A stretch of 64,000 nt of DNA from Prorocentrum cordatum. Its lineage: Eukaryota. The translations under genes were made by a program, and so were the position numbers. Each line of letters opens with the position of its first letter. Positions within the stretch are counted from its first letter, which is position 1. The stretch lies in contig CAUYUJ010000056.1 of the NCBI GenBank assembly GCA_963575745.1, forward strand, positions 1 to 64,000, written 5' to 3'. Under the pieces are notes generated by a model. It ran no database searches, was not told the origin of the DNA, and saw nothing but the letters and a program-made list of their open reading frames with translations. Of this stretch, positions 34,655 through 54,549 are shown in pieces.

Positions 34655-35034
34655 CGGGAGGGGAGGAGACGGAGAGCATAGCCGCGCAGCCGTTAGGCTT
34701 TTCAAAGGCCGCGCGCACGACTGCTTGCAAGAAAGAAAACAGTGCGTACAGTCTGGCCTAACACCAGACTGTAAGGCGAGTTTCCTCGCAAGGCATTTCG
34801 CGCAAATACAAGATAGCCCCTTCGAACGATGAAGGGCTATCGGCTCAGTTAGAGGCAAACCAAACAGGCCATACCTTACCGAGCAAATATGTATTAAGGC
34901 AAAGAGCCTGAGTCATACAAAGCCGGCTCGCTGCCAGGCGTGAAATGTGAGGCTCGTTTCCGAGCAACTAGAAGGGCGCCTCTATAGTAGGCGCCCATGC
35001 TGGCAAATCGGACCGCGGGGGCAACAAGGACAGA

Positions 35035-35733
35035 CTAAAATTGATTAGACTTGGGTTTGTCTCTGTCCTCGGGACCCCGAAAGGGAACAAACTGCTTAAC
35101 GTCATACTTGAATGACTGGGTGCCTGACATCACTTCCAGAAGCAGCTCCCGATCGATGCTTCCCTTTGTATGCCCGTCTGCGGTCATATCCCTAGTATCA
35201 CACCACTGCACGTTATGTACTATACCTATATCCATAAGCTCACGTATCCAACTGATATGTCCAAGCAGGGTCCGTTCTGTCGGTATCTTAAGATCCTTGC
35301 TTGATAATGATTTATAAACGGACTCAGCGTCTATGGTAAGAGATACTTTGATGGCTAGGCCTCCAACTTCACGCATATCTCGTAGTTGTCGTGGAGTCAG
35401 AGCTCCTGCCTTGAGCTCGTGGAGAGTGATGAGCGTAGGGTAACACTCATCGAGGTTATGCGCCGCTGCGAGTGCCTCCGCAGCATAGCTGGACCTCACC
35501 TGCAGTCGGTGTGATTTGCATAGTCCGTCACAGAGGTGAACGACGGACTTGCCTTGAATCGAGTTTCCTCGCCGTAGTACATTCGCCCCGCGTATGCCGT
35601 AGCCCTTGGTCTCATCATCCTCCTCCCCGGTAAGCTTCCGATACCCCGAATCGCTGTGGATGTCAACTTCATTCGTCGGCTTCATCCGAGGGAAGGTGAT
35701 GCGTTTCGGGCTGCTGATCAGCTTTCGCGTCAC
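35035..35733 (-). CDS. pol: Copia-type RNase H segment of Pol
   Basis: Motifs DIHSDSGY...VRSSYAAEALA...TIDAESVY...WCDTRDMTADGHTK. It joins the RT segment if a TG duplication at ~35730 (GCTGTGTGACG) is removed. Confidence 0.9.
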   Translation of the reverse strand: MTRKLISSPKRITFPRMKPTNEVDIHSDSGYRKLTGEEDDETKGYGIRGANVLRRGNSIQGKSVVHLCDGLCKSHRLQVRSSYAAEALAAAHNLDECYPTLITLHELKAGALTPRQLRDMREVGGLAIKVSLTIDAESVYKSLSSKDLKIPTERTLLGHISWIRELMDIGIVHNVQWCDTRDMTADGHTKGSIDRELLLEVMSGTQSFKYDVKQFVPFRGPEDRDKPKSNQF

Positions 35734-37409: not shown

Positions 37410-40400
37410 ACACTCGTAGTAGTGGAAAGCGGGCTGATATCGTTGTCATAGTGGATCAGCGTAGACCCGGTGGCGTACTTTACTGCAGGTAGGATTGACA
37501 CACTTTTGGCCAATCTAACTGCCACTACATGTTCTACTCGAAAGTAGTTTCGTACGAGATACTGCAGTGCTAGATGTACGCGCGGGTGAAACTTGCTGTC
37601 GTCTGAAAGATTAAGGTTTCCCTTGTAATCGGGGATATAGCCGAAAACTTTGGCAGGTTTCCCTGCGCCGAGGTGTGCCACATATGTAAGGGCGGTTTGC
37701 ATGGCCATATTATCCATGCCAAGTTCCCGTGTGAGGAGGCATTCAATGTATAGTGTGTGACGAGCATCAGGATACATCACAATTACCTCACGAGATCCTG
37801 CCTTGACAACAATATGTCCTCTTTCAGGCACATTACGGATCACCGGGAATGGGCCATTCCAGCCTCCATGGTCGTCCTTGGTGGCAGTGGGTCGGTGGTA
37901 ATCGACCAAATCCCCTGCAGAATAAAGGCGAGCACCATCAGGAGTCGTTTTAGCCCTAAGAGCCCGATTTGTCTTGGCCACAGCAGTGGCCTGAGTTATA
38001 GCTTCTAGGCTGACTTCCCGTACACGGCGTTCTCGTTCGTGTCCTGAAGTCTCGGGTCCCTTGGGAAAGTCAAGGGTATCGAGATCGGGAAGGAAGGAGG
38101 GCTGACGCCCTGTGTGTGCTTGGTATGGCGATACTCCGATATAAAACGTAAAAGCATTAGTAACGAAGATGCCTTCCGCCAATACTCTAGTGAATACAAC
38201 AGGGATGTTGTGTTTATTCAGTTCTTCCTCAATCATGTGGAGGACGCCTCTGAGGATGCCGTTCCGTGACTCAATTGAAGTCGCGTGTTGGCCAGGTGCT
38301 CGGATGCGAAGTTCCGTGCCCTTGTTGGCCATCATGGTTTCAGCGGCATCGTTATTCAGGGCGCCTTCTCCGTCTGAGTATAAGACTTTGAAGGGTCCGT
38401 GATAGGCAATCCAGCAGTAGTGGTAGGCGTCAATGATAGCGTCACGGTCTCTGTCGGAAATTTCTAGGCCAGCTGCCAGGCGAATACAGCGATCCATAAT
38501 GTGAAATATGGTCCGCTTTTTGTAGAACATGAGGTCCATTTCACCTTCGTCAAGCCAGTTACCAGGAAGGCTCACCGTGGGTAGTGTTGAGTTTCCTGGA
38601 CGTTCCCATGCTCTGCATTCCCGACAGGTATCGCAAACTTCCTTGATCATGTTCAGTCGAACTTTATCAAGCCCCACTTTGTCGAGGATTAGCCTCATCT
38701 TTGGTTCCTTCGCATGATGCCATCGCAGATGTAGTTTTCGGAGTTCCTTTTTCACGACGTGAGGTTCGTGACTACGGAGACTCTGTAGACTGTGTTGGAT
38801 GTCGAATCTAGTCCAGTCAGGTAGTCGAGGAGCCCCAGAGCCGGTAGAGGCAAGAGGGTTCCTTGTAGCTCTCCGTAGTTGGTCCCCTGTATTGACTGCA
38901 TCTGGAGGTGGTGGTACGCCTTGTAGGCGGCCCCGACGGGCCGCTACCTGTGGCGTTTCGCTAGAGGACGCAGAAGGCGTGTTTCCACGCTCGGGGGCGT
39001 CTTGTAGCATGTCGTAGCTGCTGGCACCAGATGTCGGATCGACGTTACCGAAGGATCGTGGTCGTGGTGGCCTGGCGTGTGCGCCTTGGCGGCCACCTGA
39101 AGCTGAAGCTTGGCCCTCACCCGGTTTAGGTAAGGGTTTCCACCAAGCTGGCACGGTTTTGCCTTCGGGGTCGTGATCGTCTGGAAGTTTAAATGGTTCA
39201 GCAAAACGACATTTACCAGGTTCGGTATCGAGGTGGTTCTTAACACCCTTGCTTCTCGTAAGATCCCTCTGGCATGCCGGACATGGCCAGTATACAGAGA
39301 TGGAATCATGATATTTACACTGTGTAGGGTCTCTGTTATGGCTAGGACTGTCCTTTCGGACGTTGTCGACGCATGCCGGGCAAGTGGCCACCTTTGGGAT
39401 GATACGATCACCGATGCGTCTCATACCTTCGCCTGGTTCAGCTTGATCGGGAAGGTCTGCAGGGTAAGCATGTGCAGTATTTATAAGCGCGTTTCCGCGC
39501 GTAGTGTCAATGGCTTTCGCCAGATAGACGGCTTCCACGAAGGCAGACTGCAGTCGTCGAGTGTATTTTTGTGCCAGTGAAAGCTCTTTATTGCACGGTT
39601 GTGCGTGCACATGCTGACCGTTGCACTTGAGTCGCTCAAAGGGTTTAAGAATTGTCTCGTCGTTGCTGGTGATATTTGTCGGCTTCTTAATATAGTCACC
39701 AGTTGTATCTTTGAGTCCCGTAGCACATTGGTCAATGCGTACGGTTGTAATGTGTGGTCGGTTGGCAAGTTTCTTCCATGGGGAAATATCATCCACCCAT
39801 GTTCCTGTAGGTTGTTCGCGTATAAACCACCTCCGAGCGTCATCTTGGGTTACAGCAATTTTACCACAATAAGTTATGTGTGGTAAATCTTCTCTGTGGT
39901 GCTGTTCCCAAGTGTTGTAGTTGACTTTGTAGTTGTAGTAGGATGGTGGTCCTGTGGTGCGGCAACTGGGTTGTAGCATGGCAACTCGTACGTAGCATAT
40001 AGCGAAGTAATGATCTATAACCCGCTGCACCGAGGGGTCTCCCAGGTCGACATATGTAGTCTTGTCTAGGTTGCCTCCTGAGGAGAGTCCCCTTGAGAAG
40101 GCAAGCTCTGAGATACCACCCTCACCGCCACAAAGCTCCAACATATCCACGCAGTTGTTATGACCATAGCATAGTGTAGCAACTATGCTGTATATGTTAG
40201 CGCGTGTGTCGGGCATAGATGTGGGGAGGGTAAGGAACAGGTCATCGTCCTCATCGGAGCTTATCAGCTCAATAGGGACGTCAGTACTCCAGGTTGCCAT
40301 CAGATCTTGTCCGAGTCCTGATAAATCGTCGCCGCAATCATCGTTTCCGTCTTCAGCGTGCTTTTTAATGCGGCGAAGCTTGATGCCTGCTTCCTTTTCG

Positions 40401-41500
40401 GCTTTGAGCCTTTCCTTCTGCTTGATACGCGATTCTGTGGGTAGAACTTGCTCATCTTGTTCGCCGGTCTGTGTGCCCATTGTCGTGGTTGAGTGGGTAC
40501 ATGCGTCAATCGCCAGAGTCGGGAGGGGGAGAGAACAGTCATCTATGATGGCGCGTCGAGGTTTCTGTGGTGATTGAATAGGCTCGTTTCCGAGCAAGAC
40601 CGGTTCTTCGGGTTGCCAATACAGCCGAGTACTGATGTTGGCAACCCCTGCAGGTAGTGGTGCATGCCAATCATACCCTGTTGGTTGATCGGTAACTGAG
40701 ATATCCTGAATAACCGCATTGGTATCCAGGTTAATTGTTACACGTCGGATAACTTCAGACCATTTCGGTCCTCCCTTATTGGTCGTCACGTAGTGACGGA
40801 TGTTGTGGTCTGTACGTGTATAGGTGTTTAAATATATAGGCACGTTTCCGTGCGTGGTGGTGCCCCCCAGGATGTTGTCGTTCAGATGACGGATGAGTGT
40901 AGTACGTGTCTGAGCTCGCCATTCAGCATGCCGTACTGCATGGCCGTACCAATCCAATACATGTTGTGGTATAGCCTGTTTGCATGTACATGCCCACAGC
41001 TTCGAGCTAATCGGTATTGATGACGCTACCTGCATATAAGTACCACTCGGTGTACTGTCTTGCATATTGAACCGAATACCGAAATGACACAAACGCATCC
41101 GTACTACTGACAACTTAAGATCTTCCAGGGTATCACGTACTGGAGATAACTTCCAAACATATCCTGGGGGACCACATATTATGATTTTCATACGGAGTTT
41201 CTTGGCTTTTATCAACAGGTTCTGGATACGTGACCAATGCGGGGCCACTCTCTTTCCTGGAGTCCGTACATACCAGTCACCCAGGGTACTAATCCATATG
41301 AGAGTATAATCTCCACTGATCACCGCACCCAGGTAATCTGTGCCCACGCTTGTCATAAGCTCATTGTGGGAAATACGATCACATATATAACCTCGGGTGC
41401 GGAGGTCGGCGCAAGCCTCTCTCGTATCCTCAATGACAAAAGCCCTCTTACTAAGGCAGGTTACCCCGCTGTCCTTGTTACCCCCCGGCTTTTCGGCCAA
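37394..41500 (-). CDS. pol: Pol segment: degenerate DNMT-like, C5-DNMT-like, two Cys/His fingers, integrase (HHCC, DDE, C-terminal SH3-like)
   Basis: Integrase motifs LHLRWHH..CREC, EMDLMF, LYSDGEG, IESRNG, PYQAHTG, GDLVDYHR..WNGP. DNMT-like motifs MLELCGGEGG, QPSC, REQP, IDQCATG..KKPT. Confidence 0.88.
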   Translation of the reverse strand: MAEKPGGNKDSGVTCLSKRAFVIEDTREACADLRTRGYICDRISHNELMTSVGTDYLGAVISGDYTLIWISTLGDWYVRTPGKRVAPHWSRIQNLLIKAKKLRMKIIICGPPGYVWKLSPVRDTLEDLKLSVVRMRLCHFGIRFNMQDSTPSGTYMQVASSIPISSKLWACTCKQAIPQHVLDWYGHAVRHAEWRAQTRTTLIRHLNDNILGGTTTHGNVPIYLNTYTRTDHNIRHYVTTNKGGPKWSEVIRRVTINLDTNAVIQDISVTDQPTGYDWHAPLPAGVANISTRLYWQPEEPVLLGNEPIQSPQKPRRAIIDDCSLPLPTLAIDACTHSTTTMGTQTGEQDEQVLPTESRIKQKERLKAEKEAGIKLRRIKKHAEDGNDDCGDDLSGLGQDLMATWSTDVPIELISSDEDDDLFLTLPTSMPDTRANIYSIVATLCYGHNNCVDMLELCGGEGGISELAFSRGLSSGGNLDKTTYVDLGDPSVQRVIDHYFAICYVRVAMLQPSCRTTGPPSYYNYKVNYNTWEQHHREDLPHITYCGKIAVTQDDARRWFIREQPTGTWVDDISPWKKLANRPHITTVRIDQCATGLKDTTGDYIKKPTNITSNDETILKPFERLKCNGQHVHAQPCNKELSLAQKYTRRLQSAFVEAVYLAKAIDTTRGNALINTAHAYPADLPDQAEPGEGMRRIGDRIIPKVATCPACVDNVRKDSPSHNRDPTQCKYHDSISVYWPCPACQRDLTRSKGVKNHLDTEPGKCRFAEPFKLPDDHDPEGKTVPAWWKPLPKPGEGQASASGGRQGAHARPPRPRSFGNVDPTSGASSYDMLQDAPERGNTPSASSSETPQVAARRGRLQGVPPPPDAVNTGDQLRRATRNPLASTGSGAPRLPDWTRFDIQHSLQSLRSHEPHVVKKELRKLHLRWHHAKEPKMRLILDKVGLDKVRLNMIKEVCDTCRECRAWERPGNSTLPTVSLPGNWLDEGEMDLMFYKKRTIFHIMDRCIRLAAGLEISDRDRDAIIDAYHYCWIAYHGPFKVLYSDGEGALNNDAAETMMANKGTELRIRAPGQHATSIESRNGILRGVLHMIEEELNKHNIPVVFTRVLAEGIFVTNAFTFYIGVSPYQAHTGRQPSFLPDLDTLDFPKGPETSGHERERRVREVSLEAITQATAVAKTNRALRAKTTPDGARLYSAGDLVDYHRPTATKDDHGGWNGPFPVIRNVPERGHIVVKAGSREVIVMYPDARHTLYIECLLTRELGMDNMAMQTALTYVAHLGAGKPAKVFGYIPDYKGNLNLSDDSKFHPRVHLALQYLVRNYFRVEHVVAVRLAKSVSILPAVKYATGSTLIHYDNDISPLSTTTSVWAPA
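39520..40155 (-). other. Cytosine-5 DNA methyltransferase-like domain
   Basis: Motif I-like ELCGGEG (40115-40150), motif IV-like PSC (~39962-39970) and motif VI-like EQP (39809-39817) occur in the expected order. Confidence 0.65.
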
Positions 41501-41539
41501 CAGGCAAGACGACGAGGGGGCGACGTCGCCCTGCCATCT

Positions 41540-43906
41540 TCAAGATAAAGAAGATGTGCCTGCAATGTCTGCCAGCATCTGGGCTTCCCTCAGATGCTGG
41601 AGCTCAGCACTGCAGCGCGCCGTGGCCTCAGAGGCGGATTGCTCCGCAAATGCTGTCAGCATGGATGGATTATCCATCAGCTGTTTCAGCACGCCTTTGG
41701 ACCTAGCGTCGCTGACCGTCTGCAGCTCACGGTTAGTGTATCCCATCACTATATTTCTGCTGGACTGTACAGCGTCCAAGGGTACACTTCCACCATGCTG
41801 GGCCAGTGTCCTGGCAACAAAGCAATCGAACGTCTCAAGATCGTCGATGCTGTCGCCTCGCATAGTGGCCTTGGCGAGCGTCTCCATCAACCCCTGAGGC
41901 AGGTTTCCCTGCAATTGCTCGCGCTCCTGCGCCGGGGTCGGCTCGCCCGTCAGCACTGTCTGGAATGACGTGCTGCTTGAGCTCGAGGCGGGTTGCCCCG
42001 CAGCTCCAAAACAATCACACCTGATCGACAGATGCCCTGACGGCAACTTCGTCGTCGGCATGATCTTGGAGCCCTCAGGGAGCTCCATTTTGACCTGCCC
42101 CTTACCAGGGAATATCAGCTTCTCCTGGCCTCGTTCAAGCACGATGATCGTGCGTTTGTCCTGCGTACTATCGAGGCCTAGGATGGCTGGCAGGTCCTTG
42201 CCACAGCCTGACACAATGTTCGTCTTGTATGAATCGAGTTGGGCCGACCCCTGGTACTCGCAGGCAATACTGAATGTGCCTACGGTATCCGCTGGGGCCG
42301 ACCCTTCTCCCACTCCGTTGATATTCAAACGAGAGCGGGGCTCGAACGTACAAGTACGGCCATGTGCCTCGGCAGCCTGGACGAACTTGCGGCTCGTGTT
42401 CTCGCCCATGATATTGATCTTCGAGCCGACATCGATGAGGATGGAATTTCCACCATCATCCAAGAACGTCTTACTCGGCTGCTTGATGTGCACCGTTTCT
42501 GAAGTGTCGGCTGTGCTGTTAGGCGGGTTTCCCCGCAGCCCAGTCGTACTCCCTGGCGGGTTGCCCCGCGTGACACTGGCATGCGACCTGCTTTCGGCCA
42601 TGCGCGCCAGGTCGATGTACTGGAAGTACGACACGTGCTGGGCGTGGTCGCCACGCTCCTCCCGCCAGTTGGCATACTCATCACGTATGCTCTTATACTG
42701 CTCGCGGGTCGTGCGCCTCGTCAGCGTCAGGTACGAGTGAAGGGCAATGTCCTGCAGCCCCTCATTCGTGATGTGATCCCGGTATTGCAGCCACTCCTCG
42801 AACTCCTCGTTCGTCGCTGTGATGTTGACGGCCCTGGCTGCCGTTGCTGCTGTTGCCACTGAGGAGTCTGATATGTCAAGCGACGGACTATCAGTCTCAG
42901 GATTGTCGGCATCCAGCATAAATGTTGTGTGCGCATTATCCATCTGGTTCTGGAAATATCGAACACGCAACTCACGCAGCTGGTCAGGGTCCAGTGCCAT
43001 CTCAGCCCCGCCTCCACTCTGGGGAGACATATGAGGGGTATTAGGCAGGTTTCCCTGCTGAGGCGCCGTCATCGGGATAAGCTGATCAAAATATCCCGTC
43101 TCCATCGGCGGCCTTACCTCCTCTGGCAGGTTTCCCTGCTGTTGGGGCTGAACTGTCTGCATATCTAGCATCCTGGCCGTCATCTCCTCCACCATGCTCC
43201 TCAACTCCCGCAGCTCCCCCGCTGCTTGCTCAGGAGTCTGAATGAAGGAGCCGGTCCACGGAAATGATGACGCTATGATGCCAGGTGCTCTGCAGATAGC
43301 ACATGGTGGCTGCTGAGGATCTCCCTCGCGCTGATTTGTGACATGGCCCACCACATTTGAATTCCAGCACCCTTCATGGAACAAGTGATTACACCTCAAA
43401 CGGTAAACACTTTCCCTGGGCTGAAATTCTTCGAGGCATACCGCGCAGGTATCTTCCATCCCAGCGAAGACCTCTACATCTGCTGCTCTGGGATATACCC
43501 GCCGCTGTCTCTTCAATACCGTCTCGGAGGGCATGAAGGCTGCTGGGGGAGTCCCCGTTGGGTCCAGCACCTCCGGCACTCCGGCATTTGGCACGGAGGT
43601 GGTAGGAGTCACAGCAGGCGAGTTTCCTCGCAAAGGTGAGCCCCTATTTCTTACAACCTCAAGTGCAGCTGCACGTGAATGATCTCGTACACTTTGCACG
43701 GCCTGCCTTCTCCTGAAACATGCCTGTTGAGTGTGGTAAGTCTGCCTGATGTAATCAGGCACGCCCCTACTGCCAGACGATATTGAATGGGCAGTGGGCT
43801 GGACAGCCACCTCTGGTGATGTCGGTGAAGGCATGAAGGCCATGTGCGGGTACATAGATTGGTCACTGCAGCGCACGTTAGTGAGGCTATGCATCTGATC
43901 CGCCAA
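41540..43906 (-). CDS. Polyprotein segment: RING-H2 finger plus retropepsin-like aspartic protease
   Basis: RING CAVCLEEF..RLRCNHLFHEGCW..CAICR (43289-43447); protease ILIDVGSKINIMG (~42405-42442), flap INGVG, and ILGLD. Confidence 0.85.
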   Translation of the reverse strand: MADQMHSLTNVRCSDQSMYPHMAFMPSPTSPEVAVQPTAHSISSGSRGVPDYIRQTYHTQQACFRRRQAVQSVRDHSRAAALEVVRNRGSPLRGNSPAVTPTTSVPNAGVPEVLDPTGTPPAAFMPSETVLKRQRRVYPRAADVEVFAGMEDTCAVCLEEFQPRESVYRLRCNHLFHEGCWNSNVVGHVTNQREGDPQQPPCAICRAPGIIASSFPWTGSFIQTPEQAAGELRELRSMVEEMTARMLDMQTVQPQQQGNLPEEVRPPMETGYFDQLIPMTAPQQGNLPNTPHMSPQSGGGAEMALDPDQLRELRVRYFQNQMDNAHTTFMLDADNPETDSPSLDISDSSVATAATAARAVNITATNEEFEEWLQYRDHITNEGLQDIALHSYLTLTRRTTREQYKSIRDEYANWREERGDHAQHVSYFQYIDLARMAESRSHASVTRGNPPGSTTGLRGNPPNSTADTSETVHIKQPSKTFLDDGGNSILIDVGSKINIMGENTSRKFVQAAEAHGRTCTFEPRSRLNINGVGEGSAPADTVGTFSIACEYQGSAQLDSYKTNIVSGCGKDLPAILGLDSTQDKRTIIVLERGQEKLIFPGKGQVKMELPEGSKIMPTTKLPSGHLSIRCDCFGAAGQPASSSSSTSFQTVLTGEPTPAQEREQLQGNLPQGLMETLAKATMRGDSIDDLETFDCFVARTLAQHGGSVPLDAVQSSRNIVMGYTNRELQTVSDARSKGVLKQLMDNPSMLTAFAEQSASEATARCSAELQHLREAQMLADIAGTSSLS

Positions 43907-46900
43907 TTCGCGAACAAATTTGTTCGAACCCTTGACCCATCAGGGTATAATGGCGGGTCCATCTGCGCTGGTGGTGGCCTCTGGCCCTGGGACATGCTCG
44001 GATGAGCATTGAACGCTGGGATGAAGGCTCGCTGCCGAGCAGGATCCCTTGGGTTGGGACCCTCAGGTTCCCAGGACCAGGCCGGCCTCCACCTCTGCCC
44101 ACTTGGGTGAGGCAGATTATGGCTCTGCACCTGCTGCACAGCGGCCGCCACTCTTGCACGGTAGTCGTCGGGCACACCAGCCCGATGGTGGCTTGGTGTG
44201 CCAGGCAGGTTTCCCTGCTGACTCGTTGGAGTGCCGGGCGGCATCATGTTCAGGAGAGCTGTGCCATGCTCAGCCCTAGCCGCAGCAATCCTCTCCATGA
44301 GGGTGCCGTTTGTGGCAGGGCGGCCAGGAGTCCCGAACGGAGACTGTGCAGGTGGTGTGGCCATTGGAGTCATGCCCCTCGGAGTGTGCATGCTCTGCGA
44401 GGGGCTTCCCTGCATTTGTTCAAACCGAGCAGGTCCGTTTATAGGCAGGTTTCCCTGCATGGCCTGACGGCTTCGCATTGCCATGGCGGACATTGCTCCC
44501 TGGCCTGCGGCCCAGGGGTCCTGCTGATATAACCTGTCCGCCAGTTGCTCTACCTGGTCAGGGTTCAGCGCGGCCGCTATCTGATCCAGGTCCGAGGTGC
44601 TGATGGCCTGCCAAGACACGGCACTAGGCCCTTGGCTTGGGGCACGGCTTGGAGCCGCGCTCCCGGCCTCACTCTCGGTGATCAGGAAGATCCGGTGGAT
44701 CTCGGGCTGGTTTCCCAGCTTGGTGGGACTATAGTGGTCCCCAACTTCCCTGTGGAGGTAGACCATGGGAGGGTCGACGCCCTCTTGGTCTCGGGACCAC
44801 TGGTATTTAACGCTAGCACTGCCAACGTTAGCCCACCTGTCAGGGGCAGACATTGTAGAAACGGGGACTCGCGTCCAGCGATTCCCCAGATACTCTGGAT
44901 TACGCCAGTGCTTTCCCGTGGCAAGGTCCTCTACATGAGAAATGCAGTACGGTTCAATGATACCGTTGTTTCCCTCAGACAAGAGGACTCCGTTATCGGA
45001 CCAACAGAACTTCATACCATCTTGCATGGCCTTGTGCCAATCCACGAAGATGATGATGTCTGAGTCTGGGTCCCACCCACTATTCACGGCACGACGGCGG
45101 ACCGTCGGCACGAAGTGGATGTGCGACCGGCCTGTCCCCCGTTTCTTCGTGTTGTGCTCGGGTCTACAGGACAGACCGTGCCACATAATGCCTTCGAAGG
45201 CATTCCACCGAGTGCCATGCATGGCGACTTCGGGGTATGGGGCCGGTCTCCCGGCAGGTTGGTCGCACAGTGCAATGTAGTTGTACAGCGACCATGGAGC
45301 TTTCAGTGTCCATGAATGCCCCTGAGAGGCGCGGATGAAGATAGCGGGCTCACCGGAGTCCCGCACCAACACCTTGAACTGAAGGCGCTGTTTTTCTTCT
45401 CCGTCTGGTTCACGGACATGAACAACTTCCATCATGATGGCTGCCAGTTGGTCAACCGAGCGAGCAAATAGCTGCTCATTGATGACTTTGGCCTCGTCAT
45501 ATCGTGGATTATACCCATCGTGTCTCGATTTTCCTGTGTTCCACGGATATTCACTCACGAGCTCCACGAGGTTAACCCAACCATCATGATCATCGAAGGA
45601 GTCCAGGCCCCACACGGGATTGTGAGGTTTGTCTGGCGCATGTCTGCATATCCTGCTGAGAGCTTTACTCAGCTGTTTGAGAGTGTGATTGGATGTAGGA
45701 AGGATTTTGTCTTGCCTGCACTTCTTCATGAATGCCTCGTCCACCGAACGTATCGGTGGGAGCTTCCGCAGAGCAAGTCTATCCCTGATCACACTCGGAC
45801 TCCCACTAGTGAAGGACGTGTCGCCTGGGTGGTGCAGCTGATCCACGGGCGGGTTTCCCCGCATAGGAACCTCTGTTGCTGAAGAGGCTGCGGCTCCTGA
45901 AGAGGAGGAAGCTGCAGCGGCAGCGCCTGGCGGGTTTCCCCGCGGTGATCCGCGACTGGCGCTGCCCCTAATCGTCGGCACCCAGGTACCCCTAGACATA
46001 GCACCTTCGTCGGACCTTTTGGAACGGGCCGCCACCGGCGAAGCTGGCGCAGGGGCATACCCGGTGCGCTCGAAAGCTGCGGCTCTTTTCGCAATGGAGC
46101 TGCTGCGACTGGGCGGACGTCTCCGTTCCTCCACAGGGTCCTGAGGTTGCTGCTTGGGCTCAGACGCTTGTGCAGGAGTTGCGCCAATCGGCGGCCTCGG
46201 AGTTGCAGACCGAGGCACCTCCATCTGCGCATCTGGCCCAGGGTCCTGAGAGTGCGCCTTCGGTTTCGCCTCCGAAGACGGCTTCGGTGCAGGGGTTTCA
46301 CTCTTAGCCTTCGACAGTAGTGGGAGTGGGGGTTTTCTAGCCCCCTTCATGTAAATTTTGCTGGAATCCTCCAACATCTGGCGAGTTGCCTCGCGTGCGC
46401 GTTCGTCTGCTATCCGCATGCGCTCCTCGTCCTCCGCAACGCGTTGGGCCTTCTGTTCATCCTTGGATGTCAGATCTGGTTGCTGGGACTGACTTGAAAC
46501 TCCGGGCGAGTTTCCTCGCATTCCAGGAAGACTAAAGAGCGCGTCTTTTTCTTCCTGGGTCATGGGCGCCAGTCCCCTTGGAGCCGTGGGAGGTTTATCC
46601 TCTTCGTCTTTCGGACCCAAGTGGCTCAAGATCCCGAGGCGGTGATTCACTTCTGCGATCTCGTCCTGTGTCATCGGGATAAGTTGCGGATGGCCCTCTT
46701 CATGAGGGGTTTTGCCCCTGCTGGGGCTCAGGCCTTCATTGTTGCCAACGGGGCATCCCGGCCTGTGGTTCTGGAACGGCTCGGAAAAAGGTCCGCAAGC
46801 TGCTTGGGGCCTATACTGCTTGCGAGCTGCGATGATGTCTCGCAGCTGAGTCCGCGCTTCTTGAATTTCAGGGCGGCGGATGTTTGTTGCAAGCTGATAT

Positions 46901-49900
46901 CCTCCACGGATAGCCTTGCCCTCAGTGTCCCTATGGGCAGGGTTGCCCTTGCCGAAGGCCGAGTGTTCCCCTTTTCGGCGTCTTGGGTCATTATACGGAA
47001 GCAGCTGGCCACCTCTCCTGAGAGCGTGTTCTTTCGGGCCAGCTTGCCTCCACTCACGAGGCAGCCGAGCCTGTGGATGTGGCTCTCCTCTGACGCGCGC
47101 ATGGGAACGCGACCTTCTGGTGTTCTCATCAGAAGAGGCGGCCGAAGCAGCCTGAGCGGCCACCGGTGGAGGCGCCTGCGGAGGCTCCTGTGCGATCCCA
47201 AGTGGATCGTCCGTCAGAGGCAGGTTTCCCTTCTGGCTGGAGCTTGGCGCAAATGGCGCTTGTGCCGATGGTGATGATGATTCAGACTCGTCGGGATCGA
47301 AGTCAACCTCTTCCTCACCATTAACTTCCATCATGAGGATTGTGACTTCATCCTCATCTAGTCCGCAACCATCGCCTTCTTCTTCTTCTGATGTAGAACT
47401 ACCGATGATGATGGCCATTGGCGTATCAGGTACAGGCAGGTTTCCCTGCATGGCCGGCGTCTGTGCGTCGCTCGGCTGCCCCGGGGTAGGAGGCGCTGTT
47501 GTCGGCTCAGGCTCGTTGCCGAGCACAGGCTGCCCGGCAATGTTGCGCATGGCCGTATGGTTTGGCCGCATTCCCACCGCCTGGAGACCCCATCCTGGCG
47601 GAGAAAGATCATGACCGCGCATGGCGATAGCCATTTCCAGAGCATTGCGCCATCTACCGCGGGAATATATCAGGTGTCTCTGCACGTCCTCAGGATGCAC
47701 GCTGTCAATGAGAGTCAGAGCTGCCAACAGCAACTCCGAGCTACCGCAGGCGTCGGTATCCTGCAGTATCATGCTGTCAGCTTCGATGTGCTCTTGACTC
47801 TCGGGATACGCGGTGATAAGTATCTCATGCATCCTCATGAGGGTATGCAGAAGAGTGCGTGGTCCGTATTCGCCTGGAGCAAGCGAACCAGGAGGTACAA
47901 ATGGGGTCTCTGGTTCACCTGCAATGAAAGCTTGTACGAAAGCCTGAGACTCCATTTCTATCAAGTCTTCAGTGGTTTGGGGATATTCTCCCATCAAAGA
48001 AGGCCTGTTTCCAGGCGGGATTCCGGGGGGAGGTTGGAGGTGGCGTTCAACCTCAGAAGGCGAGGCCTCTACAGTGATATCCTCGTCACTGCTTTCGTAG
48101 GCCATGATGTTACCTGGGTTCCCGAACATCCAGTCGAAGAAAGAAAGAGGCTGGTTTCCCAGCGTACCGTGATCCACGGGAGTGAGCTCGTTATTGCCAA
48201 TAACGAACCGGCGGACGTACTCGAGGTAGTACGCGTACAATCCATGACCATACGCCTCGAGCTCGTCGACGTTGTCCATGCAACTGACCCAAGTGTAAAA
48301 TATCTGCTCCATGGCTTCAAAATCCTGGAGGCTCAGATACTCAATGAATGGTTCACTTGAGCCAAAATGGACTTCGGTCGACCTGCCCTTTCCTTTTCCC
48401 TTCGCTGGACAATCTCGCGCAAGATGGTCGGTACTGTCACATTCATGGCATTTAAGAACCTGGCCGTCTCTACCTCGCGGGTTTCCCCGCCTACCCTTGC
48501 CTTTTCCTGAGGTCTCTCTACGGCCCTTGCCGCGGCCCTTTCCCCCAAAGAAGATCTCATCATATTGTTCATCTGAGAGCCTCTGGAGAAATGCCGCGAT
48601 GCCTCGTCCGTTCAACCTCCGACGACCACGCTTACCTTTACCTTTTCCCTTAAAACTCCTCCGAATCCTCCTTCTAACACGACGCACTGGTTTTCGCGTG
48701 AACCTCCTCCACCTTCGTTTGGCCTGTTGTAGTAACCAGAACAAATGTTCAGCGCGCTGATTGTCATTATCCATATTCATCATACCTGACCAATCTAAAG
48801 CCTCAACACCATCTGATGATACAGTATCTGTGTCGGTGCCGGAATCGAAATCCTCGTCTCCCAAGTAGGTGGATACACCGTCGGTTAGGGGGTTTGATTC
48901 ACCCCATAAGGAGCGGTGTGGTTGTGGTTCTCTGGAAGGAGGGCTGGTTGCCCAGCTTGGTTGTGATCGATCTCCTGCTAGTAGAGCAGTGGATTCTCCA
49001 GGATCATCAGCCCATATGCTTGAGGGCCCGTTCCCAGGCTGGGCTTCAGTAGTTAGGGTAGTGTAGAAATTTCCACTACCAGATCCCCTTCCCCTTCCAA
49101 ACACAGATCCTATATTGCCAGGAGACCGTTCGGATAGGTGGCCTATCGAACGCATCCTCTCCAGCAACTCATCATACTGTTGTTGTGTTCGGGGCATTTG
49201 GTGATTGAGTGGCTGTAAGAGTTGCATGGCTCGCTGGTTGCCGACGCCTAAGGCGCGGAACAAGATCGTGGTTAGTAGTTGGAAGTTGGGAAGGTCAAAT
49301 CCCACCGACTGTGCCTCAAGTCGGGCCATTTCGAATCGTGTAAGGGTGACATCGATTCGTTCCCCGTGAGGCACGTGGAAGTCGATGAGTTGTGTGCCGG
49401 AAGTGAGCTGGCGCTCATCTTCCAGGCGCTCGAACTTCATGCTTAGGAGGAACATGATGTAGGTCACTGGGTCAGTGTGGACCCCATCGATGTCAGCACC
49501 ATAATTTATAATGTCAGGCGGTACCCTCATGGCGAGTGTCCTCGCTAGGCCACCTAGGCCGCGTTGTATTGCGGCCGCTTGGGCCTGTGGCGTCATACGT
49601 CCGCTTGTGACGTTGAGCCATGCGTTGACCTCATAAACGTACTCACGGAAAGGTACGTTGCCTTGAGGGTCCCAATATGGGCCATGTGTTTGCCCATCGG
49701 TGCTGTTGTCTCCACGACGCATGTGTCCGATTGCTGCCCCCAGCGCGAACCATATGATAGCGAAGATAACCAGCCCAAGGCTGTGTAGATAAGGGCGGTT
49801 ATTAGGCGCGTTGCCGCGCTGGGGTAGCGCCTTGTCGAGTCTTCGAGGCGCTCTATCTGGCGGATCTCTCCGCCCCTGCTTCAAGTATTGCGCTTTTGGC

Positions 49901-50340
49901 TCGTTGCCGAGCGGTTGGTGGTAGCGCAATGATGAAGCGTATATGGTACCAATGTCGTTGTCTAGACGTCGTACCTCTCGTGTCGCTTCTTGCTCTTGGA
50001 TAGATCCTCGTAAACGTACTGGGAGTAATAGCGCAGGGTGGTAGGTGGTCACGAAGATCGTGCCGAAGAGTATGAGGCTAAAAAGAGCAAGAGCTGACCA
50101 CACGAGAGTGCGGCCAGCTCCGCTACCAAGTCGAAAGTGAGCCTGGTAACTCAAATAGCATCCGATACCATGGGGATCGGATGGCAGATAGCGTCCATTC
50201 CTCTGCTGCGGTGGTTCAGTATGGGGAATGGGCGGGTATGATAGGATAAGATCGATGTATCGGTCTTTCCAGCACATAGCGAACACAAGCAGTGTCCGGA
50301 CAAATAGGGCGCGCGTGCCTTGAGCCAAAGGCAACGGCAC
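43651..50340 (-). CDS. gag: Gag-like polyprotein with CCHC knuckle and embedded Tpt1/KptA domain (likely Gag ATG at 49722)
   Basis: 2229-codon ORF containing Gag-like PYWDP..FREY..W, a KGKGKG basic tract, CHECDSTDHLARDC (48409-48450) and Tpt1 motifs at ~44920-45680. Confidence 0.88.
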   Translation of the reverse strand: MPLPLAQGTRALFVRTLLVFAMCWKDRYIDLILSYPPIPHTEPPQQRNGRYLPSDPHGIGCYLSYQAHFRLGSGAGRTLVWSALALFSLILFGTIFVTTYHPALLLPVRLRGSIQEQEATREVRRLDNDIGTIYASSLRYHQPLGNEPKAQYLKQGRRDPPDRAPRRLDKALPQRGNAPNNRPYLHSLGLVIFAIIWFALGAAIGHMRRGDNSTDGQTHGPYWDPQGNVPFREYVYEVNAWLNVTSGRMTPQAQAAAIQRGLGGLARTLAMRVPPDIINYGADIDGVHTDPVTYIMFLLSMKFERLEDERQLTSGTQLIDFHVPHGERIDVTLTRFEMARLEAQSVGFDLPNFQLLTTILFRALGVGNQRAMQLLQPLNHQMPRTQQQYDELLERMRSIGHLSERSPGNIGSVFGRGRGSGSGNFYTTLTTEAQPGNGPSSIWADDPGESTALLAGDRSQPSWATSPPSREPQPHRSLWGESNPLTDGVSTYLGDEDFDSGTDTDTVSSDGVEALDWSGMMNMDNDNQRAEHLFWLLQQAKRRWRRFTRKPVRRVRRRIRRSFKGKGKGKRGRRRLNGRGIAAFLQRLSDEQYDEIFFGGKGRGKGRRETSGKGKGRRGNPRGRDGQVLKCHECDSTDHLARDCPAKGKGKGRSTEVHFGSSEPFIEYLSLQDFEAMEQIFYTWVSCMDNVDELEAYGHGLYAYYLEYVRRFVIGNNELTPVDHGTLGNQPLSFFDWMFGNPGNIMAYESSDEDITVEASPSEVERHLQPPPGIPPGNRPSLMGEYPQTTEDLIEMESQAFVQAFIAGEPETPFVPPGSLAPGEYGPRTLLHTLMRMHEILITAYPESQEHIEADSMILQDTDACGSSELLLAALTLIDSVHPEDVQRHLIYSRGRWRNALEMAIAMRGHDLSPPGWGLQAVGMRPNHTAMRNIAGQPVLGNEPEPTTAPPTPGQPSDAQTPAMQGNLPVPDTPMAIIIGSSTSEEEEGDGCGLDEDEVTILMMEVNGEEEVDFDPDESESSSPSAQAPFAPSSSQKGNLPLTDDPLGIAQEPPQAPPPVAAQAASAASSDENTRRSRSHARVRGEPHPQARLPREWRQAGPKEHALRRGGQLLPYNDPRRRKGEHSAFGKGNPAHRDTEGKAIRGGYQLATNIRRPEIQEARTQLRDIIAARKQYRPQAACGPFSEPFQNHRPGCPVGNNEGLSPSRGKTPHEEGHPQLIPMTQDEIAEVNHRLGILSHLGPKDEEDKPPTAPRGLAPMTQEEKDALFSLPGMRGNSPGVSSQSQQPDLTSKDEQKAQRVAEDEERMRIADERAREATRQMLEDSSKIYMKGARKPPLPLLSKAKSETPAPKPSSEAKPKAHSQDPGPDAQMEVPRSATPRPPIGATPAQASEPKQQPQDPVEERRRPPSRSSSIAKRAAAFERTGYAPAPASPVAARSKRSDEGAMSRGTWVPTIRGSASRGSPRGNPPGAAAAASSSSGAAASSATEVPMRGNPPVDQLHHPGDTSFTSGSPSVIRDRLALRKLPPIRSVDEAFMKKCRQDKILPTSNHTLKQLSKALSRICRHAPDKPHNPVWGLDSFDDHDGWVNLVELVSEYPWNTGKSRHDGYNPRYDEAKVINEQLFARSVDQLAAIMMEVVHVREPDGEEKQRLQFKVLVRDSGEPAIFIRASQGHSWTLKAPWSLYNYIALCDQPAGRPAPYPEVAMHGTRWNAFEGIMWHGLSCRPEHNTKKRGTGRSHIHFVPTVRRRAVNSGWDPDSDIIIFVDWHKAMQDGMKFCWSDNGVLLSEGNNGIIEPYCISHVEDLATGKHWRNPEYLGNRWTRVPVSTMSAPDRWANVGSASVKYQWSRDQEGVDPPMVYLHREVGDHYSPTKLGNQPEIHRIFLITESEAGSAAPSRAPSQGPSAVSWQAISTSDLDQIAAALNPDQVEQLADRLYQQDPWAAGQGAMSAMAMRSRQAMQGNLPINGPARFEQMQGSPSQSMHTPRGMTPMATPPAQSPFGTPGRPATNGTLMERIAAARAEHGTALLNMMPPGTPTSQQGNLPGTPSHHRAGVPDDYRARVAAAVQQVQSHNLPHPSGQRWRPAWSWEPEGPNPRDPARQRAFIPAFNAHPSMSQGQRPPPAQMDPPLYPDGSRVRTNLFANWRIRCIASLTCAAVTNLCTRTWPSCLHRHHQRWLSSPLPIQYRLAVGACLITSGRLTTLNRHVSGEGRPCKVYEIIHVQLHLRL
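44920..45680 (-). other. TPT1: Tpt1/KptA NAD+-dependent RNA 2'-phosphotransferase domain
   Basis: Motifs in canonical order: LSKALSRICRH, DGWV, KQR, IRASQGHS, HGT, GL..RSHIHF, IFVDWHKAMQDGMKF.WSDNGVLLSEG..GII.P. Confidence 0.88.
50117..50128 (-). promoter_or_regulatory. Primer-binding site TGGTAGCGGAGC (tRNA-iMet-like)
   Basis: It abuts the 5' LTR. TGGTAGC is complementary to the GCUACCA 3' end typical of eukaryotic initiator tRNA-Met. Confidence 0.85.
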
Positions 50341-50392
50341 GCGAGCTATGCGCCCGATACTATAACATCTCCCAAAGAGCTACCCTTAAAGT
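50129..50392 (-). repeat. 5' LTR (264 bp)
   Basis: Direct repeat of 34391-34654, followed by the PBS in element orientation. Confidence 0.95.

Positions 50393-54511: not shown

Positions 54512-54549
<38 letters not shown>

What the first reader, a model, noticed from the sequence alone, without database searches (positions are those of the whole stretch)
44920..45680. Tpt1/KptA RNA 2'-phosphotransferase fused in frame to retrotransposon Gag
Seen: all hallmark motifs lie within the uninterrupted Gag ORF: RH (45640-45645), KQR (45386-45394), IRASQGHS (45313-45336), HGT (45211-45219), RSHIHF and SDNGVLLSEG. Known: Tpt1 uses an Arg-His-Arg-Arg tetrad and NAD+ to remove RNA 2'-phosphates, and some homologues ADP-ribose-cap 5'-phosphorylated RNA or DNA. 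The tetrad looks intact here, although the usual SGxR motif reads SGWD. Inference: as part of Gag it would be delivered into the particle, where it could heal or alter the tRNA primer, remove RT-blocking 2'-phosphates, or cap RNA/cDNA 5' ends against host nucleases.
Basis: partly seen in the sequence, partly recalled or inferred. Interest (0 to 1): 0.9.

Follow-up and report, generated by a model that had tools for sequence, protein, structure and literature searches.

The report
Tpt1 enzyme inside algal retrotransposon polyprotein
A 16-kb jumping gene of a marine green alga carries a complete copy of the RNA-repair enzyme Tpt1 inside its own giant particle-forming protein, which suggests that removing stray RNA phosphates, or tagging nucleic-acid ends with ADP-ribose, matters for copying such elements.

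Summary
Window 44971-45678 (minus strand) encodes a Pfam PTS_2-RNA (Tpt1/KptA) domain (E 2.9e-24). [quoted passage not shown]

Only the conserved fifth arginine (SGxR) is missing. It reads SGWD here and is absent from all 10 element-type relatives that cover the site.

The domain sits in an unbroken 2208-aa ORF, about 900 residues downstream of a basic CCHC knuckle region. The ORF belongs to a 16,002-bp Ty1/copia-like LTR retrotransposon (34391-50392). The element has 264-bp LTRs, a 5-bp target duplication, an empty paralogous site and an RVT_2 reverse transcriptase.

The family is highly repeated in four public runs. Twenty-six protein fragments, all labelled Pyramimonas sp., carry the same domain.

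My literature searches found no Tpt1 in any retrotransposon. KptA domains embedded in RNA-virus polyproteins are known. Function is inferred, not shown.

Also noticed: the sense strand carries about 35 covarying GNRA-tetraloop hairpins, and the rest of the window has none.

The parts
44971..45678 (-). Tpt1/KptA (PTS_2-RNA) domain, ORF1 residues 1534-1769. Key residues: R1545, H1546, K1629, R1631, Q1652, H1687, T1689, R1717, H1719, H1721. D1736 stands where canonical enzymes have the SGxR arginine.
   Evidence: Pfam E 2.9e-24. phmmer against PDB: human TRPT1 7yw3 E 8.5e-12. AF2 pLDDT 85.5. Foldseek 7yw3 E 3e-13, TMt 0.74. Residue mapping.
43651..50277 (-). ORF1, 2208 aa from the first ATG. The first roughly 50 residues are LTR-encoded, and the first Met after the PBS is residue 186 (49722). 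It holds the basic region, the CCHC knuckle, long linker-like stretches and the Tpt1 domain.
48409..48450 (-). CX2CX4HX4C zinc knuckle (residues 610-623). It is preceded by an arginine-rich stretch (residues 519-558, window 48604-48723) with 23 R/K in 40 residues.
   Evidence: Pfam zf-CCHC E 0.0011-0.0025, 18.3-19.4 bits, below the 20.8 cut-off. Motif and basic window.
50129..50392 (-). 5' LTR (264 bp), followed by the PBS-like TGGTAGCGGAGC at 50117-50128.
   Evidence: LTR pair 98.1% identical. Sequence.
34391..34654 (-). 3' LTR (264 bp).
34386..34390 (.). Target-site duplication CAAGC. The second copy is at 50393-50397.
   Evidence: The paralogous empty site has a single CAAGC.
53510..53968 (.). 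Paralogous empty site. Both flanks of the element lie next to each other here, 87-88% identical to the flanks, without the element.
41540..43939 (-). ORF2, with a RING finger (43289-43453) and a protease-like LIDVGS motif. It overlaps ORF1 by 289 nt in the -1 frame.
   Evidence: zf-RING_11 35 bits (cut-off 27) and zf-RING_2 27.4 bits (cut-off 27.3). Frames. Extra base at 43925 in other copies. The protease motif was read by eye only.
37394..41539 (-). ORF3, in the same frame as ORF2 behind a single TGA. The N-terminal ~850 aa are unassigned. Integrase-like HHCC (38615-38731) and a D941/D995/E1029 triad (38270-38536) follow.
   Evidence: Motifs were read by eye. Pfam and PDB sequence searches found nothing.
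36039..36668 (-). Reverse transcriptase of the copia type (RVT_2) within ORF4 (35730-37445).
   Evidence: Pfam E 4.6e-9, 36.7 bits against a cut-off of 31.6.
35035..35976 (-). ORF5, RNase H-like by position only.
   Evidence: No Pfam hit.
34776..49912 (-). 35 dispersed 14-nt hairpins of the form GCNNG-GNRA-CNNGC, usually followed by C then T. First bases at 49912, 49819, 49039, 48956, 48490, 48163, 48016, 47524, 47449, 46519, 46394, 45943, 45862, 45255, 44719, 44458, 44218, 43631, 43139, 43058, 42569, 42536, 42001, 41912, 41469, 40853, 40595, 39500, 38990, 37666, 37260, 36999, 36361, 34965 and 34789.

Best explanation
The region encodes a genuine eukaryotic-type Tpt1/TRPT1 domain. An ancestor of a giant Ty1/copia-like LTR retrotransposon family of a Pyramimonas-like marine green alga captured it and has kept it as a built-in module of the element's polyprotein. 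The order is basic/CCHC region, long linkers, Tpt1, RING, protease, integrase, RT.

Shown:
- domain identity, fold and catalytic residues;
- placement inside one ORF of an element that really transposed;
- presence of the domain in many diverged copies.

Inferred:
- The domain is made with, and packed alongside, the particle proteins.
- It uses NAD+ to ADP-ribosylate a nucleic-acid phosphate.
- Its most likely job is to strip internal 2'-phosphates left by the plant/fungal-type tRNA ligase on element RNA (or on the primer tRNA) before reverse transcription, because a 2'-phosphate hampers reverse transcriptases.
- The family-wide loss of the fifth arginine, which helps cage the 2'-PO4, suggests altered substrate handling. 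It may stall at the ADP-ribosylated intermediate or favour 5'-phosphate capping.

My odds: about 0.9 that it is a real, selected Tpt1-family module of the element. About 0.6 that it is catalytically active. About 0.35 that 2'-PO4 removal for reverse transcription is the job. The confidence figure of 0.5 is for the statement as a whole.
For: Domain identity:
- Pfam PF01885 E 2.9e-24, full profile length.
- AF2 pLDDT 85.5, pTM 0.81.
- All 22 Foldseek PDB matches with E <= 0.001 are Tpt1/KptA; the best are human and mouse TRPT1 with TMt 0.74-0.77.
- Tetrad, K of KQR, HGT and HxH are present.

Element:
- LTR pair 98.1% identical.
- 5-bp target duplication and an empty paralogous site.
- PBS-like TGGTAGCGGAGC and RVT_2.

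Family:
- 25,478, 10,448, 2,097 and 2,442 contigs at least 85% alike were laid from four runs. All 30 bins are covered, including the Tpt1 bins.
- 25 of 25 short hits and the best near-length hit are Tpt1 fragments labelled Pyramimonas sp., 57-89% identical.
- Tetrad arginines are kept in every fragment truly aligned there: 4 of 4, 15 of 15 and 9 of 9. This is after setting aside a chimeric row and a frameshifted row.
- Mean column identity to the window is only 0.70.
- A relative at 47% identity (P0004) still keeps KxR, QGHS, HGT and RxHxH. It groups with the query (SH-aLRT 97, quick tree).

Selection: of the 18 best-supported positions in ORF1 where the family differs from this copy, 12 are synonymous and 6 are not.

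Against: - No activity, expression or particle data exist.
- This copy cannot make a full polyprotein as it stands. There is a frameshift between ORF1 and ORF2, a TGA between ORF2 and ORF3, and shifts between ORF3/4 and ORF4/5.
- The SGxR arginine is Asp here and is absent in 0 of 8 close and 0 of 2 distant relatives. Its alanine mutant is deleterious in Runella, though inessential in yeast (PMC10622864, passages).
- Many family fragments carry His-to-Arg changes at NAD-site histidines: 5 of 17, 2 of 13, 4 of 10 and 2 of 10. Much of the family is therefore decayed.
- No partner RNA-repair domain (ligase, 2H, Macro, Nudix) was found by Pfam in ORF1-3.
- No self-cleaving ribozyme was found by Rfam.
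- Nothing shows that the element's RNA ever carries a 2'-phosphate.
Confidence: 0.5

Rival explanations
1. The domain is active but is not a 2'-phosphate remover. With the 2'-PO4-caging arginine lost, it acts mainly as a one-step ADP-ribosyltransferase that caps 5'-phosphorylated RNA or cDNA ends. Alternatively it leaves RNA 2'-phospho-ADP-ribose marks. Either would shield element nucleic acids from host nucleases or sensors.
For: SGWD, SGFV or SGFH replace SGxR in all 10 element-type relatives covering the site. That arginine contacts the 2'-PO4 and the NAD+ alpha-phosphate (PMC10622864). Runella tetrad mutants R64A and R119A accumulate the ADP-ribosylated intermediate (PMC6097658), so step-arrested variants are chemically plausible. 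Tpt1 enzymes can cap 5'-phosphates (title and abstract of PMC6182162 seen in the listing).
Against: The mutants that stall are tetrad mutants, not mutants of this arginine. The tetrad is intact here. The yeast enzyme tolerates loss of this arginine in vivo (PMC10622864). No data exist on the element's ends.
Confidence: 0.25
2. The domain is a passenger. A host TRPT1 sequence was picked up by chance and is carried along without benefit to the element, slowly decaying.
For: Many fragments have damaging-looking changes at histidines. This copy has broken pol frames.
Against: The domain persists in relatives down to 47% identity with its catalytic residues. Tetrad arginines are invariant in truly aligned fragments. 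Family-versus-copy differences are 12 synonymous to 6 non-synonymous in ORF1. The 2208-aa frame is unbroken.
Confidence: 0.1
3. The domain serves as a non-catalytic RNA-binding or NAD/ADP-ribose-sensing module, for example to pick RNA for packaging.
For: The RNA-binding N lobe is retained and enlarged by insertions: 236 residues align to 174 profile positions.
Against: Residues needed only for chemistry (tetrad, HGT, HxH) are kept in this copy and as the majority state in the family.
Confidence: 0.07
4. Assembly chimera or nested insertion: the Tpt1 segment does not belong to the element.
For: None found. One database fragment (P0008) joins the end of ORF3 to the Tpt1 N lobe, so rearranged copies do exist.
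Against: A single open frame runs through the region. There are no internal LTRs or target duplications. Contigs from four runs cover the region and its flanks. Fragments P0174 and P0158 run from the domain into the downstream ORF1 sequence.
Confidence: 0.02

Closest known systems
Cellular eukaryotic Tpt1/TRPT1 (human 7yw3, mouse 7yw2, yeast 7yw4)
   Same: Two-lobe fold, Arg-His-Arg-Arg tetrad, KQR, QGHS, HGT, HxH and SDNGV motifs. These are the only PDB sequence hits at E <= 0.01.
   Different: It is embedded in a retrotransposon polyprotein. It has insertions in both lobes. The SGxR arginine is replaced by Asp. It sits on a divergent branch outside the main cluster of 64 of 74 homologues.
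KptA domains embedded in polyproteins of positive-strand RNA viruses (Botrylloides leachii nidovirus, Beihai picorna-like virus 117)
   Same: A Tpt1/KptA module inside the polyprotein of a replicating RNA-based element. The nidovirus segment matches the model at Foldseek E 7.4e-11. It is described in PMC9503650 (passages) and PMC11848433 (passages).
   Different: Those are replicase polyproteins of animal RNA viruses. Here the host is a reverse-transcribing LTR element of an alga, and the module lies between the nucleocapsid-like region and the protease. PMC9503650 has no occurrence of 'retrotransposon' or 'retroelement' in its main text.
Retrotransposons that captured host enzymes (DNMT in Symbiodinium LINE/DIRS and Klebsormidium Gypsy elements)
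   Same: A host enzyme domain is built into the coding region of a retrotransposon and kept over many copies (PMC5890265, passages).
   Different: The enzyme differs (an NAD+-dependent RNA/DNA phosphate ADP-ribosyltransferase rather than a DNA methyltransferase). The superfamily is copia-type. The host is a different lineage.
Ty1/copia LTR retrotransposons
   Same: LTRs, 5-bp target duplication, TGG-starting PBS next to the 5' LTR, RVT_2 reverse transcriptase, and an integrase-like region upstream of RT.
   Different: It is 16 kb with about 2000 extra residues, plus Tpt1 and RING modules. Pfam does not recognise its Gag, protease, integrase or RNase H. A pyrimidine run stands where a polypurine tract is expected.
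Giant-virus, baculovirus and jumbo-phage Tpt1/KptA genes
   Same: A Tpt1 fold in mobile or viral genomes: Hyperionvirus, Sylvanvirus, Bodo saltans virus and Neodiprion sertifer NPV, at E 1e-12 to 7e-9.
   Different: Those are free-standing genes of DNA viruses, linked to tRNA repair (PMC9503650).
Phage lambda boxB / N-peptide pairs and dispersed packaging signals of ssRNA viruses (recalled, not from a call)
   Same: For the hairpin array only: small GNRA-type hairpins that arginine-rich peptides can bind, and many dispersed copies along a packaged RNA.
   Different: No binding has been shown here. The hairpins lie mostly inside coding sequence, in one reading frame.

Membership tests
Tpt1/KptA RNA 2'-phosphotransferase (PF01885) | Profile match above the curated threshold over the full domain | tested here: met
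   86.5 bits against a cut-off of 26, profile positions 4-177 of 177.
Tpt1/KptA RNA 2'-phosphotransferase (PF01885) | Two-lobe fold (winged-helix RNA lobe plus ADP-ribosyltransferase NAD+ lobe) | tested here: met
   AF2 pLDDT 85.5. All 22 PDB matches with E <= 0.001 are Tpt1/KptA, and 268 columns align to 7yw3.
Tpt1/KptA RNA 2'-phosphotransferase (PF01885) | [quoted passage not shown] | tested here: met
   R1545, H1546, R1631 and R1717. They were mapped by counting yeast R23/H24/R71/R138 and Runella R16/H17/R64/R119 in the PDB chains. The definition comes from PMC6097658.
Tpt1/KptA RNA 2'-phosphotransferase (PF01885) | NAD+ contacts: His-Gly-Thr and the HxH histidine | tested here: met
   H1687-G-T1689 and H1719/H1721. 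Their roles come from PMC10622864.
Tpt1/KptA RNA 2'-phosphotransferase (PF01885) | Conserved fifth arginine (SGxR; Aeropyrum R134, Pyrococcus R133) that contacts the 2'-PO4 and the NAD+ phosphates | tested here: not met
   It is D1736 here. The column holds R or K in 66 of 74 homologues. The equivalence with R134/R133 is inferred from spacing (+18 from the tetrad Arg, followed by His as in Runella GMRH), not from a direct alignment. The residue is outside the tetrad and is inessential in yeast.
Tpt1/KptA RNA 2'-phosphotransferase (PF01885) | NAD+-dependent 2'-phosphotransfer activity | not testable with these tools
   Needs biochemistry or yeast complementation.
Bacterial KptA equivalogs (NCBIfam NF002013-15) | Score above the equivalog cut-off | tested here: not met
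   Best score is 38.1 bits against a cut-off of 239. The domain is of the eukaryotic type.
Ty1/copia LTR retrotransposon | Two LTRs flanked by a short target-site duplication | tested here: met
   264-bp LTRs, 98.1% identical. CAAGC lies on both sides and appears once at the empty paralogous site.
Ty1/copia LTR retrotransposon | Reverse transcriptase of the RVT_2 type | tested here: met
   E 4.6e-9, 36.7 bits against a cut-off of 31.6.
Ty1/copia LTR retrotransposon | Integrase upstream of RT (order PR-INT-RT-RH) | tested here: inconclusive
   HHCC and D/D/E motifs were read by eye upstream of RT. No Pfam rve hit even at E <= 10. No PDB sequence hit at E <= 1.
Ty1/copia LTR retrotransposon | PBS next to the 5' LTR and a polypurine tract before the 3' LTR | tested here: inconclusive
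   TGGTAGCGGAGC directly follows the 5' LTR. Its likeness to initiator-tRNA-Met primer sites is recalled; the window holds no tRNA gene. The 20 bases before the 3' LTR are pyrimidine-rich, not purine-rich.
Retroelement Gag | First ORF after the LTR/PBS, with a basic region and a CCHC knuckle | tested here: met
   CX2CX4HX4C at residues 610-623 and 23 R/K in 40 residues at 519-558. Pfam zf-CCHC scores 18.3-19.4 bits, just under the 20.8 cut-off.
Retroelement Gag | Homology to a capsid/Gag family | tested here: not met
   No Pfam Gag family at E <= 10 for residues 186-640. The fold was not tested because the atlas was not available.

The most novel reading that the evidence does not exclude
The Tpt1 module and the roughly 35 sense-strand GNRA hairpins are two halves of one RNA-handling programme unknown in retroelements. 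In this reading the element's genomic RNA is cut and re-joined by a tRNA-ligase-type pathway during its cycle, for repair, recombination or circularisation. The built-in Tpt1 then erases the resulting 2'-phosphates inside the particle so that reverse transcriptase can pass. The hairpins serve as boxB-like handles through which the arginine-rich Gag region selects that RNA.
Probability: 0.1. Interest if true: 0.85.

Novelty: new variant of a known kind. Interest (0 to 1): 0.62.

Why it matters
Retrotransposons rarely add enzymes beyond protease, integrase, RT and RNase H. Each addition, such as dUTPase, chromodomain or DNA methyltransferase, has pointed to a pressure on their replication.

A conserved Tpt1 module would point to a pressure not yet considered for retroelements. 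That could be internal RNA 2'-phosphates from tRNA-ligase-type joining. It could also be a need to cap nucleic-acid 5'-phosphates with ADP-ribose. Either way it links NAD+/ADP-ribose chemistry to reverse transcription.

The module is also a natural Tpt1 variant lacking the fifth arginine, which is useful for dissecting the two-step mechanism. It is directly testable with existing assays: yeast tpt1-delta rescue, 2'-PO4 oligonucleotides and 2''OMeNAD+ tagging.

The hairpin array may be the first case of many dispersed, covarying stem-loops along a retrotransposon RNA.

Tried and rejected
- **Whole genome:** none is held for this window, so copies could not be collected.
- **Long fused relatives:** none among 1988 candidates of 1214-3864 aa. 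The search is limited to shared words.
- **JGI metagenome contigs:** a peptide-pattern scan found no relative. A degenerate DNA pattern for the FIRASQG(H/R)SW motif gave two loci, L001 and L002. Both are chance matches with stops and no tblastn hit.
- **IMG/VR viral contigs:** no match.
- **Alignment A2:** too gappy for the search for related loci.
- **Names or taxa of the unlabelled homologues:** The tree is therefore unlabelled. It is only the quick version, because the careful search did not finish. It cannot name a donor lineage.
- **Expression:** no RNA holder is listed among the 24 runs. This is no evidence either way.
- **Retrozyme-like idea** (self-cleaving ribozyme plus ligase, hence 2'-PO4): Rfam at E <= 1 gave 10 sub-threshold microRNA-type matches. 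Eight lie on an AT-rich repeat at about 51150-51240, outside the element; two weak ones (42725-42775 and 47890-47966, + strand) lie inside it. No ribozyme was found.
- **Unassigned ORF3 N-terminal region** (residues 395-720, methyltransferase-like motif seen by eye): single-sequence AF2 gave pLDDT 31, which is unusable. It was not searched further.
- **Protein atlas** for the Gag and integrase regions: not available.
- **My first guesses, both wrong:**
  - I guessed a dinoflagellate host; the labelled relatives are Pyramimonas sp..
  - I recalled that the SGxR arginine was the fourth tetrad residue. Counting residues in the PDB chains showed the tetrad Arg is the one before HxH.
- **Protease-site reading of the G-N-x-P peptides:** rejected as the sole explanation. 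The flanking codons covary as base pairs, and two hairpins lie in the 3' untranslated region.
- **Depth figures:** not used as copy numbers, as the tool advises.
Full report
**What is at the coordinates**

The minus strand carries an unbroken 2208-aa ORF, 43651-50277. Pfam places PTS_2-RNA (Tpt1/KptA, PF01885) on residues 1534-1769, window 44971-45678. The match has E 2.9e-24 and 86.5 bits against a cut-off of 26, and it covers profile positions 4-177 of 177.

A sequence search of the PDB finds only human and mouse TRPT1 at E <= 0.01 (8.5e-12 and 5.6e-10). An AlphaFold2 model built on 82 homologues has mean pLDDT 85.5 and pTM 0.81. All 22 Foldseek matches to solved structures with E <= 0.001 are Tpt1/KptA enzymes. 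Human and mouse TRPT1 lead with TMt 0.74-0.77. Bacterial KptA equivalog models score 38 bits against cut-offs above 230, so the domain is of the eukaryotic type.

**Catalytic residues**

I first recalled, wrongly, that the SGxR arginine was the fourth tetrad residue. I then counted residues in the solved yeast and Runella chains. The published tetrad is yeast R23-H24-R71-R138 and Runella R16-H17-R64-R119 (PMC6097658, passages). It lies in LRH, KQRF and sRxHvHl. K1629, Q1652, H1687-G-T1689, H1719 and H1721 are also there.

The one departure is SGWD. The arginine normally in that motif is R or K in 66 of 74 homologues of at least 150 aa. By spacing it is the Aeropyrum R134 / Pyrococcus R133 residue. 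That residue contacts the substrate 2'-PO4 and the NAD+ alpha-phosphate. It is dispensable in yeast but deleterious when mutated in Runella (PMC10622864, passages). Here it is Asp.

**The host element**

Two 264-bp direct repeats (34391-34654 and 50129-50392) are 98.1% identical. They are flanked by CAAGC on both sides. A diverged paralogue of the insertion site at 53510-53968 carries the two flanks side by side with a single CAAGC. The 16,002-bp unit 34391-50392 is therefore a true insertion with a 5-bp target duplication.

TGGTAGCGGAGC follows the 5' LTR directly. Its likeness to initiator-tRNA primer sites of copia elements is recalled, not tested.

Downstream of ORF1 on the same strand lie:
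- ORF2, with a RING finger above Pfam thresholds and a protease-like motif read by eye;
- a TGA, then ORF3 in the same frame, with about 850 unassigned residues followed by HHCC and D/D/E motifs read by eye;
- ORF4, with an RVT_2 reverse transcriptase (E 4.6e-9, above threshold);
- ORF5.

An integrase-like region ahead of an RVT_2 RT is the Ty1/copia order. However, Pfam does not recognise the Gag, protease, integrase or RNase H parts even at E <= 10.

ORF1 has a stretch of 23 R/K in 40 residues (519-558) and a CX2CX4HX4C knuckle (610-623). Pfam zf-CCHC scores just under its cut-off there. Tpt1 therefore sits about 900 residues downstream of a nucleocapsid-like region and upstream of the protease. 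'Fused to Gag' is loosely right. 'A module of a Gag-Pol-type polyprotein' is more exact.

**Is it a property of the family?**

Contigs of four public runs were laid on the whole element at 85% identity or more. This gave 25,478, 10,448, 2,097 and 2,442 contigs, with identities ranging from over 99% to under 90%. They cover all 30 bins, including the Tpt1 bins. The contigs are short, so none bridges the domain to pol. I do not use depth as copy number.

In those contigs one extra base at 43925 is present in 239 of 963, 1255 of 2303, 86 of 118 and 55 of 75 depth units. By frame arithmetic this puts ORF1 and ORF2 in one frame. Extra bases at 37429/37430 likewise join ORF3 and ORF4 in part of the depth. 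This copy therefore carries lesions, or subfamily states, that split a longer polyprotein.

In the protein collections, all 25 short hits (E <= 1e-8) and the best near-length hit are Tpt1 fragments labelled Pyramimonas sp. They are 57-89% identical to the window. The host is thus probably a Pyramimonas-like prasinophyte.

Across these fragments:
- Mean identity to the window is 0.70 over 234 columns.
- The tetrad arginines are unchanged in every fragment truly aligned there: 4 of 4, 15 of 15 and 9 of 9. Two rows are set aside here, a chimeric N-terminus (P0008) and a frameshifted tail (P0007).
- The tetrad histidine is kept in 3 of 4.
- NAD-site histidines are often Arg: 5 of 17, 2 of 13, 4 of 10 and 2 of 10.
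- The SGxR arginine is absent in all 8 close and both distant relatives.

The family is therefore a mix of intact-looking and decayed copies.

A relative at 47% identity (P0004) still has KxR, QGHS, HGT and RxHxH. It groups with the query (SH-aLRT 97) outside the main cluster, in a quick, unlabelled tree.

Of the 18 best-supported ORF1 positions where the family differs from this copy, 12 are synonymous and 6 are not. This is more synonymous changes than neutral drift would give. The sample is small, and only four of the positions lie in or near the domain.

**What it probably does**

Shown: a complete Tpt1-type active site in a module that is translated as part of the element's first ORF.

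Inferred: it travels with the particle proteins and uses NAD+ on a nucleic-acid phosphate.

The most economical job is the canonical one. The tRNA ligases of plants and fungi leave a 2'-phosphate at the junction (established knowledge). [quoted passage not shown] An element that depends on copying RNA would gain from clearing it.

The lost fifth arginine argues for changed substrate handling. The main rival is therefore a one-step ADP-ribose capping or marking enzyme.

Nothing in the window shows that element RNA is ever cut and re-ligated. No ribozyme was found. Pfam found no ligase, 2H, Macro or Nudix partner in ORF1-3.

**Comparison with what is known**

Tpt1/KptA domains embedded in polyproteins are known from two positive-strand RNA viruses. 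Free-standing copies are known from giant viruses, sawfly baculoviruses and jumbo phages (PMC9503650, passages; PMC11848433, passages). The nidovirus segment and several giant-virus proteins match my model.

Retrotransposons that absorbed host enzymes are known too, for example DNA methyltransferases (PMC5890265, passages).

I found no report of Tpt1 in a retrotransposon:
- Tpt1 + retrotransposon + phosphotransferase gave 5 papers, none on this topic by title or by the passages I read.
- PF01885, KptA, retrotransposon, LTR and Pyramimonas gave nothing relevant.
- Pyramimonas genome and transposable-element papers gave nothing relevant.

Supplementary files and subscription journals were not searched. 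I rate the finding a new variant of a known kind.

**Side finding**

The element's sense strand holds GG[AC]AAC 47 times, against a shuffle expectation of 10.5 +/- 3.4. Of these 47, 33 are flanked by three Watson-Crick pairs and 31 by four. The figure is 0 of 8 on the antisense strand and 0 of 47 on both strands of the other 48 kb.

The consensus is GCNNG-GAAA/GCAA-CNNGC, then C (32 of 35) and T (22 of 35). Ten different stem dinucleotides are used. Free energies run from -7.0 to -9.3 kcal/mol, and 29 of 35 hairpins appear in the minimum-energy fold of a 74-nt context.

Using looser criteria (39 hits), 30 of the 37 hairpins in coding sequence sit in one frame. In that frame 25 read G-N-x-P, against about 1 expected. 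The residue before Gly and residue x are tied only by codon complementarity (Q..L, R..P, L..Q, R..S and so on). Two further hairpins lie in the 3' untranslated region. The selected object is therefore a nucleic-acid hairpin, not just a peptide.

Two hairpins lie just upstream of the Tpt1 domain (45943, 45862) and one lies downstream (44719). I could not test conservation across copies. One literature search (GNRA tetraloop + retrotransposon + packaging) found nothing alike. Dispersed packaging handles for the arginine-rich Gag region are my leading guess, at about one in three.

**Verdict**

The domain is real, complete but for one non-tetrad arginine, and integral to a transposed, highly repeated copia-like element. 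Its function is unproven.

Noticed in passing
window 34776-49912, minus strand (35 sites, listed under parts): An array of covarying 5-bp hairpins with a GNRA tetraloop (GCNNG-GAAA/GCAA-CNNGC-C) is confined to the element's sense strand. Most sit in one reading frame as G-N-x-P, and two lie in the 3' UTR. None of this form occurs on the antisense strand or in the other 48 kb.
   Followed up: partly
window 43289-43453, minus strand (ORF2 residues 148-202): A RING finger (zf-RING_11 35 bits, zf-RING_2 27.4 bits, both above cut-off) lies between the Tpt1-bearing ORF and the protease-like region. This is a second unusual accessory module for a copia-type element.
   Followed up: no
window 38720-41356, minus strand (ORF3 residues 1-~850): About 850 residues upstream of the integrase-like motifs match no Pfam or NCBIfam family. 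A stretch around residues 400-470 looks methyltransferase-like by eye (a G-rich motif followed by P-S-C). Single-sequence AF2 was unusable (pLDDT 31).
   Followed up: partly
window 34655-34680, minus strand: The roughly 20 bases just upstream of the 3' LTR are a pyrimidine run (CTCCGTCTCCTCCCCTCCC) where LTR elements normally have a polypurine tract. The LTR termini read AC...CT rather than TG...CA.
   Followed up: no
window 43925, 37429-37430, 41540-41542, 35731: This copy's polyprotein is split by a -1 offset between ORF1 and ORF2, a TGA between ORF2 and ORF3, and offsets between ORF3/4 and ORF4/5. Part of the family contigs carry one extra base at 43925 and at 37429/30 that would put the neighbouring ORFs in one frame. 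Whether the split forms are lesions or recoding sites is open.
   Followed up: partly
proteins P0155, P0156, P0158-P0161, P0167, P0168, P0170 (alignment A2): His-to-Arg replacements recur at several different histidines of the Tpt1 domain in different family fragments. These are A-to-G changes at the second codon base. They could be ordinary decay or, if the fragments come from transcripts, RNA editing.
   Followed up: no
protein P0008 (102 aa): This database fragment joins the C-terminal end of the ORF3-type protein (a match to window ORF3 residues ~1245-1270) directly to the Tpt1 N lobe. It is a rearranged copy or a chimeric transcript of the same family.
   Followed up: no
window 50392-51673 versus 53654-54634; 53117-53416 versus 55407-55706: The element landed in a segmentally duplicated region of about 3.3 kb (87-94% identical blocks). 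That duplication is what provides the empty-site paralogue.
   Followed up: partly
window 26730-27740 and 29070-31770: Long degenerate tandem arrays occur here: a 10-nt GCCAAGCAAT-like unit, and 9/12-nt GATGAT-rich units with an embedded GGTGTCCCGATG motif. They include open frames of low complexity.
   Followed up: no
hairpins whose stem ends in G before GGAAAC, e.g. 47449, 44458, 44218, 43139, 43058: In the prevailing frame these read G_GGA_AAC. As recalled, this is a classical -1 frameshift slippery heptamer of luteoviruses. No downstream stimulator at the usual spacing was looked for.
   Followed up: no
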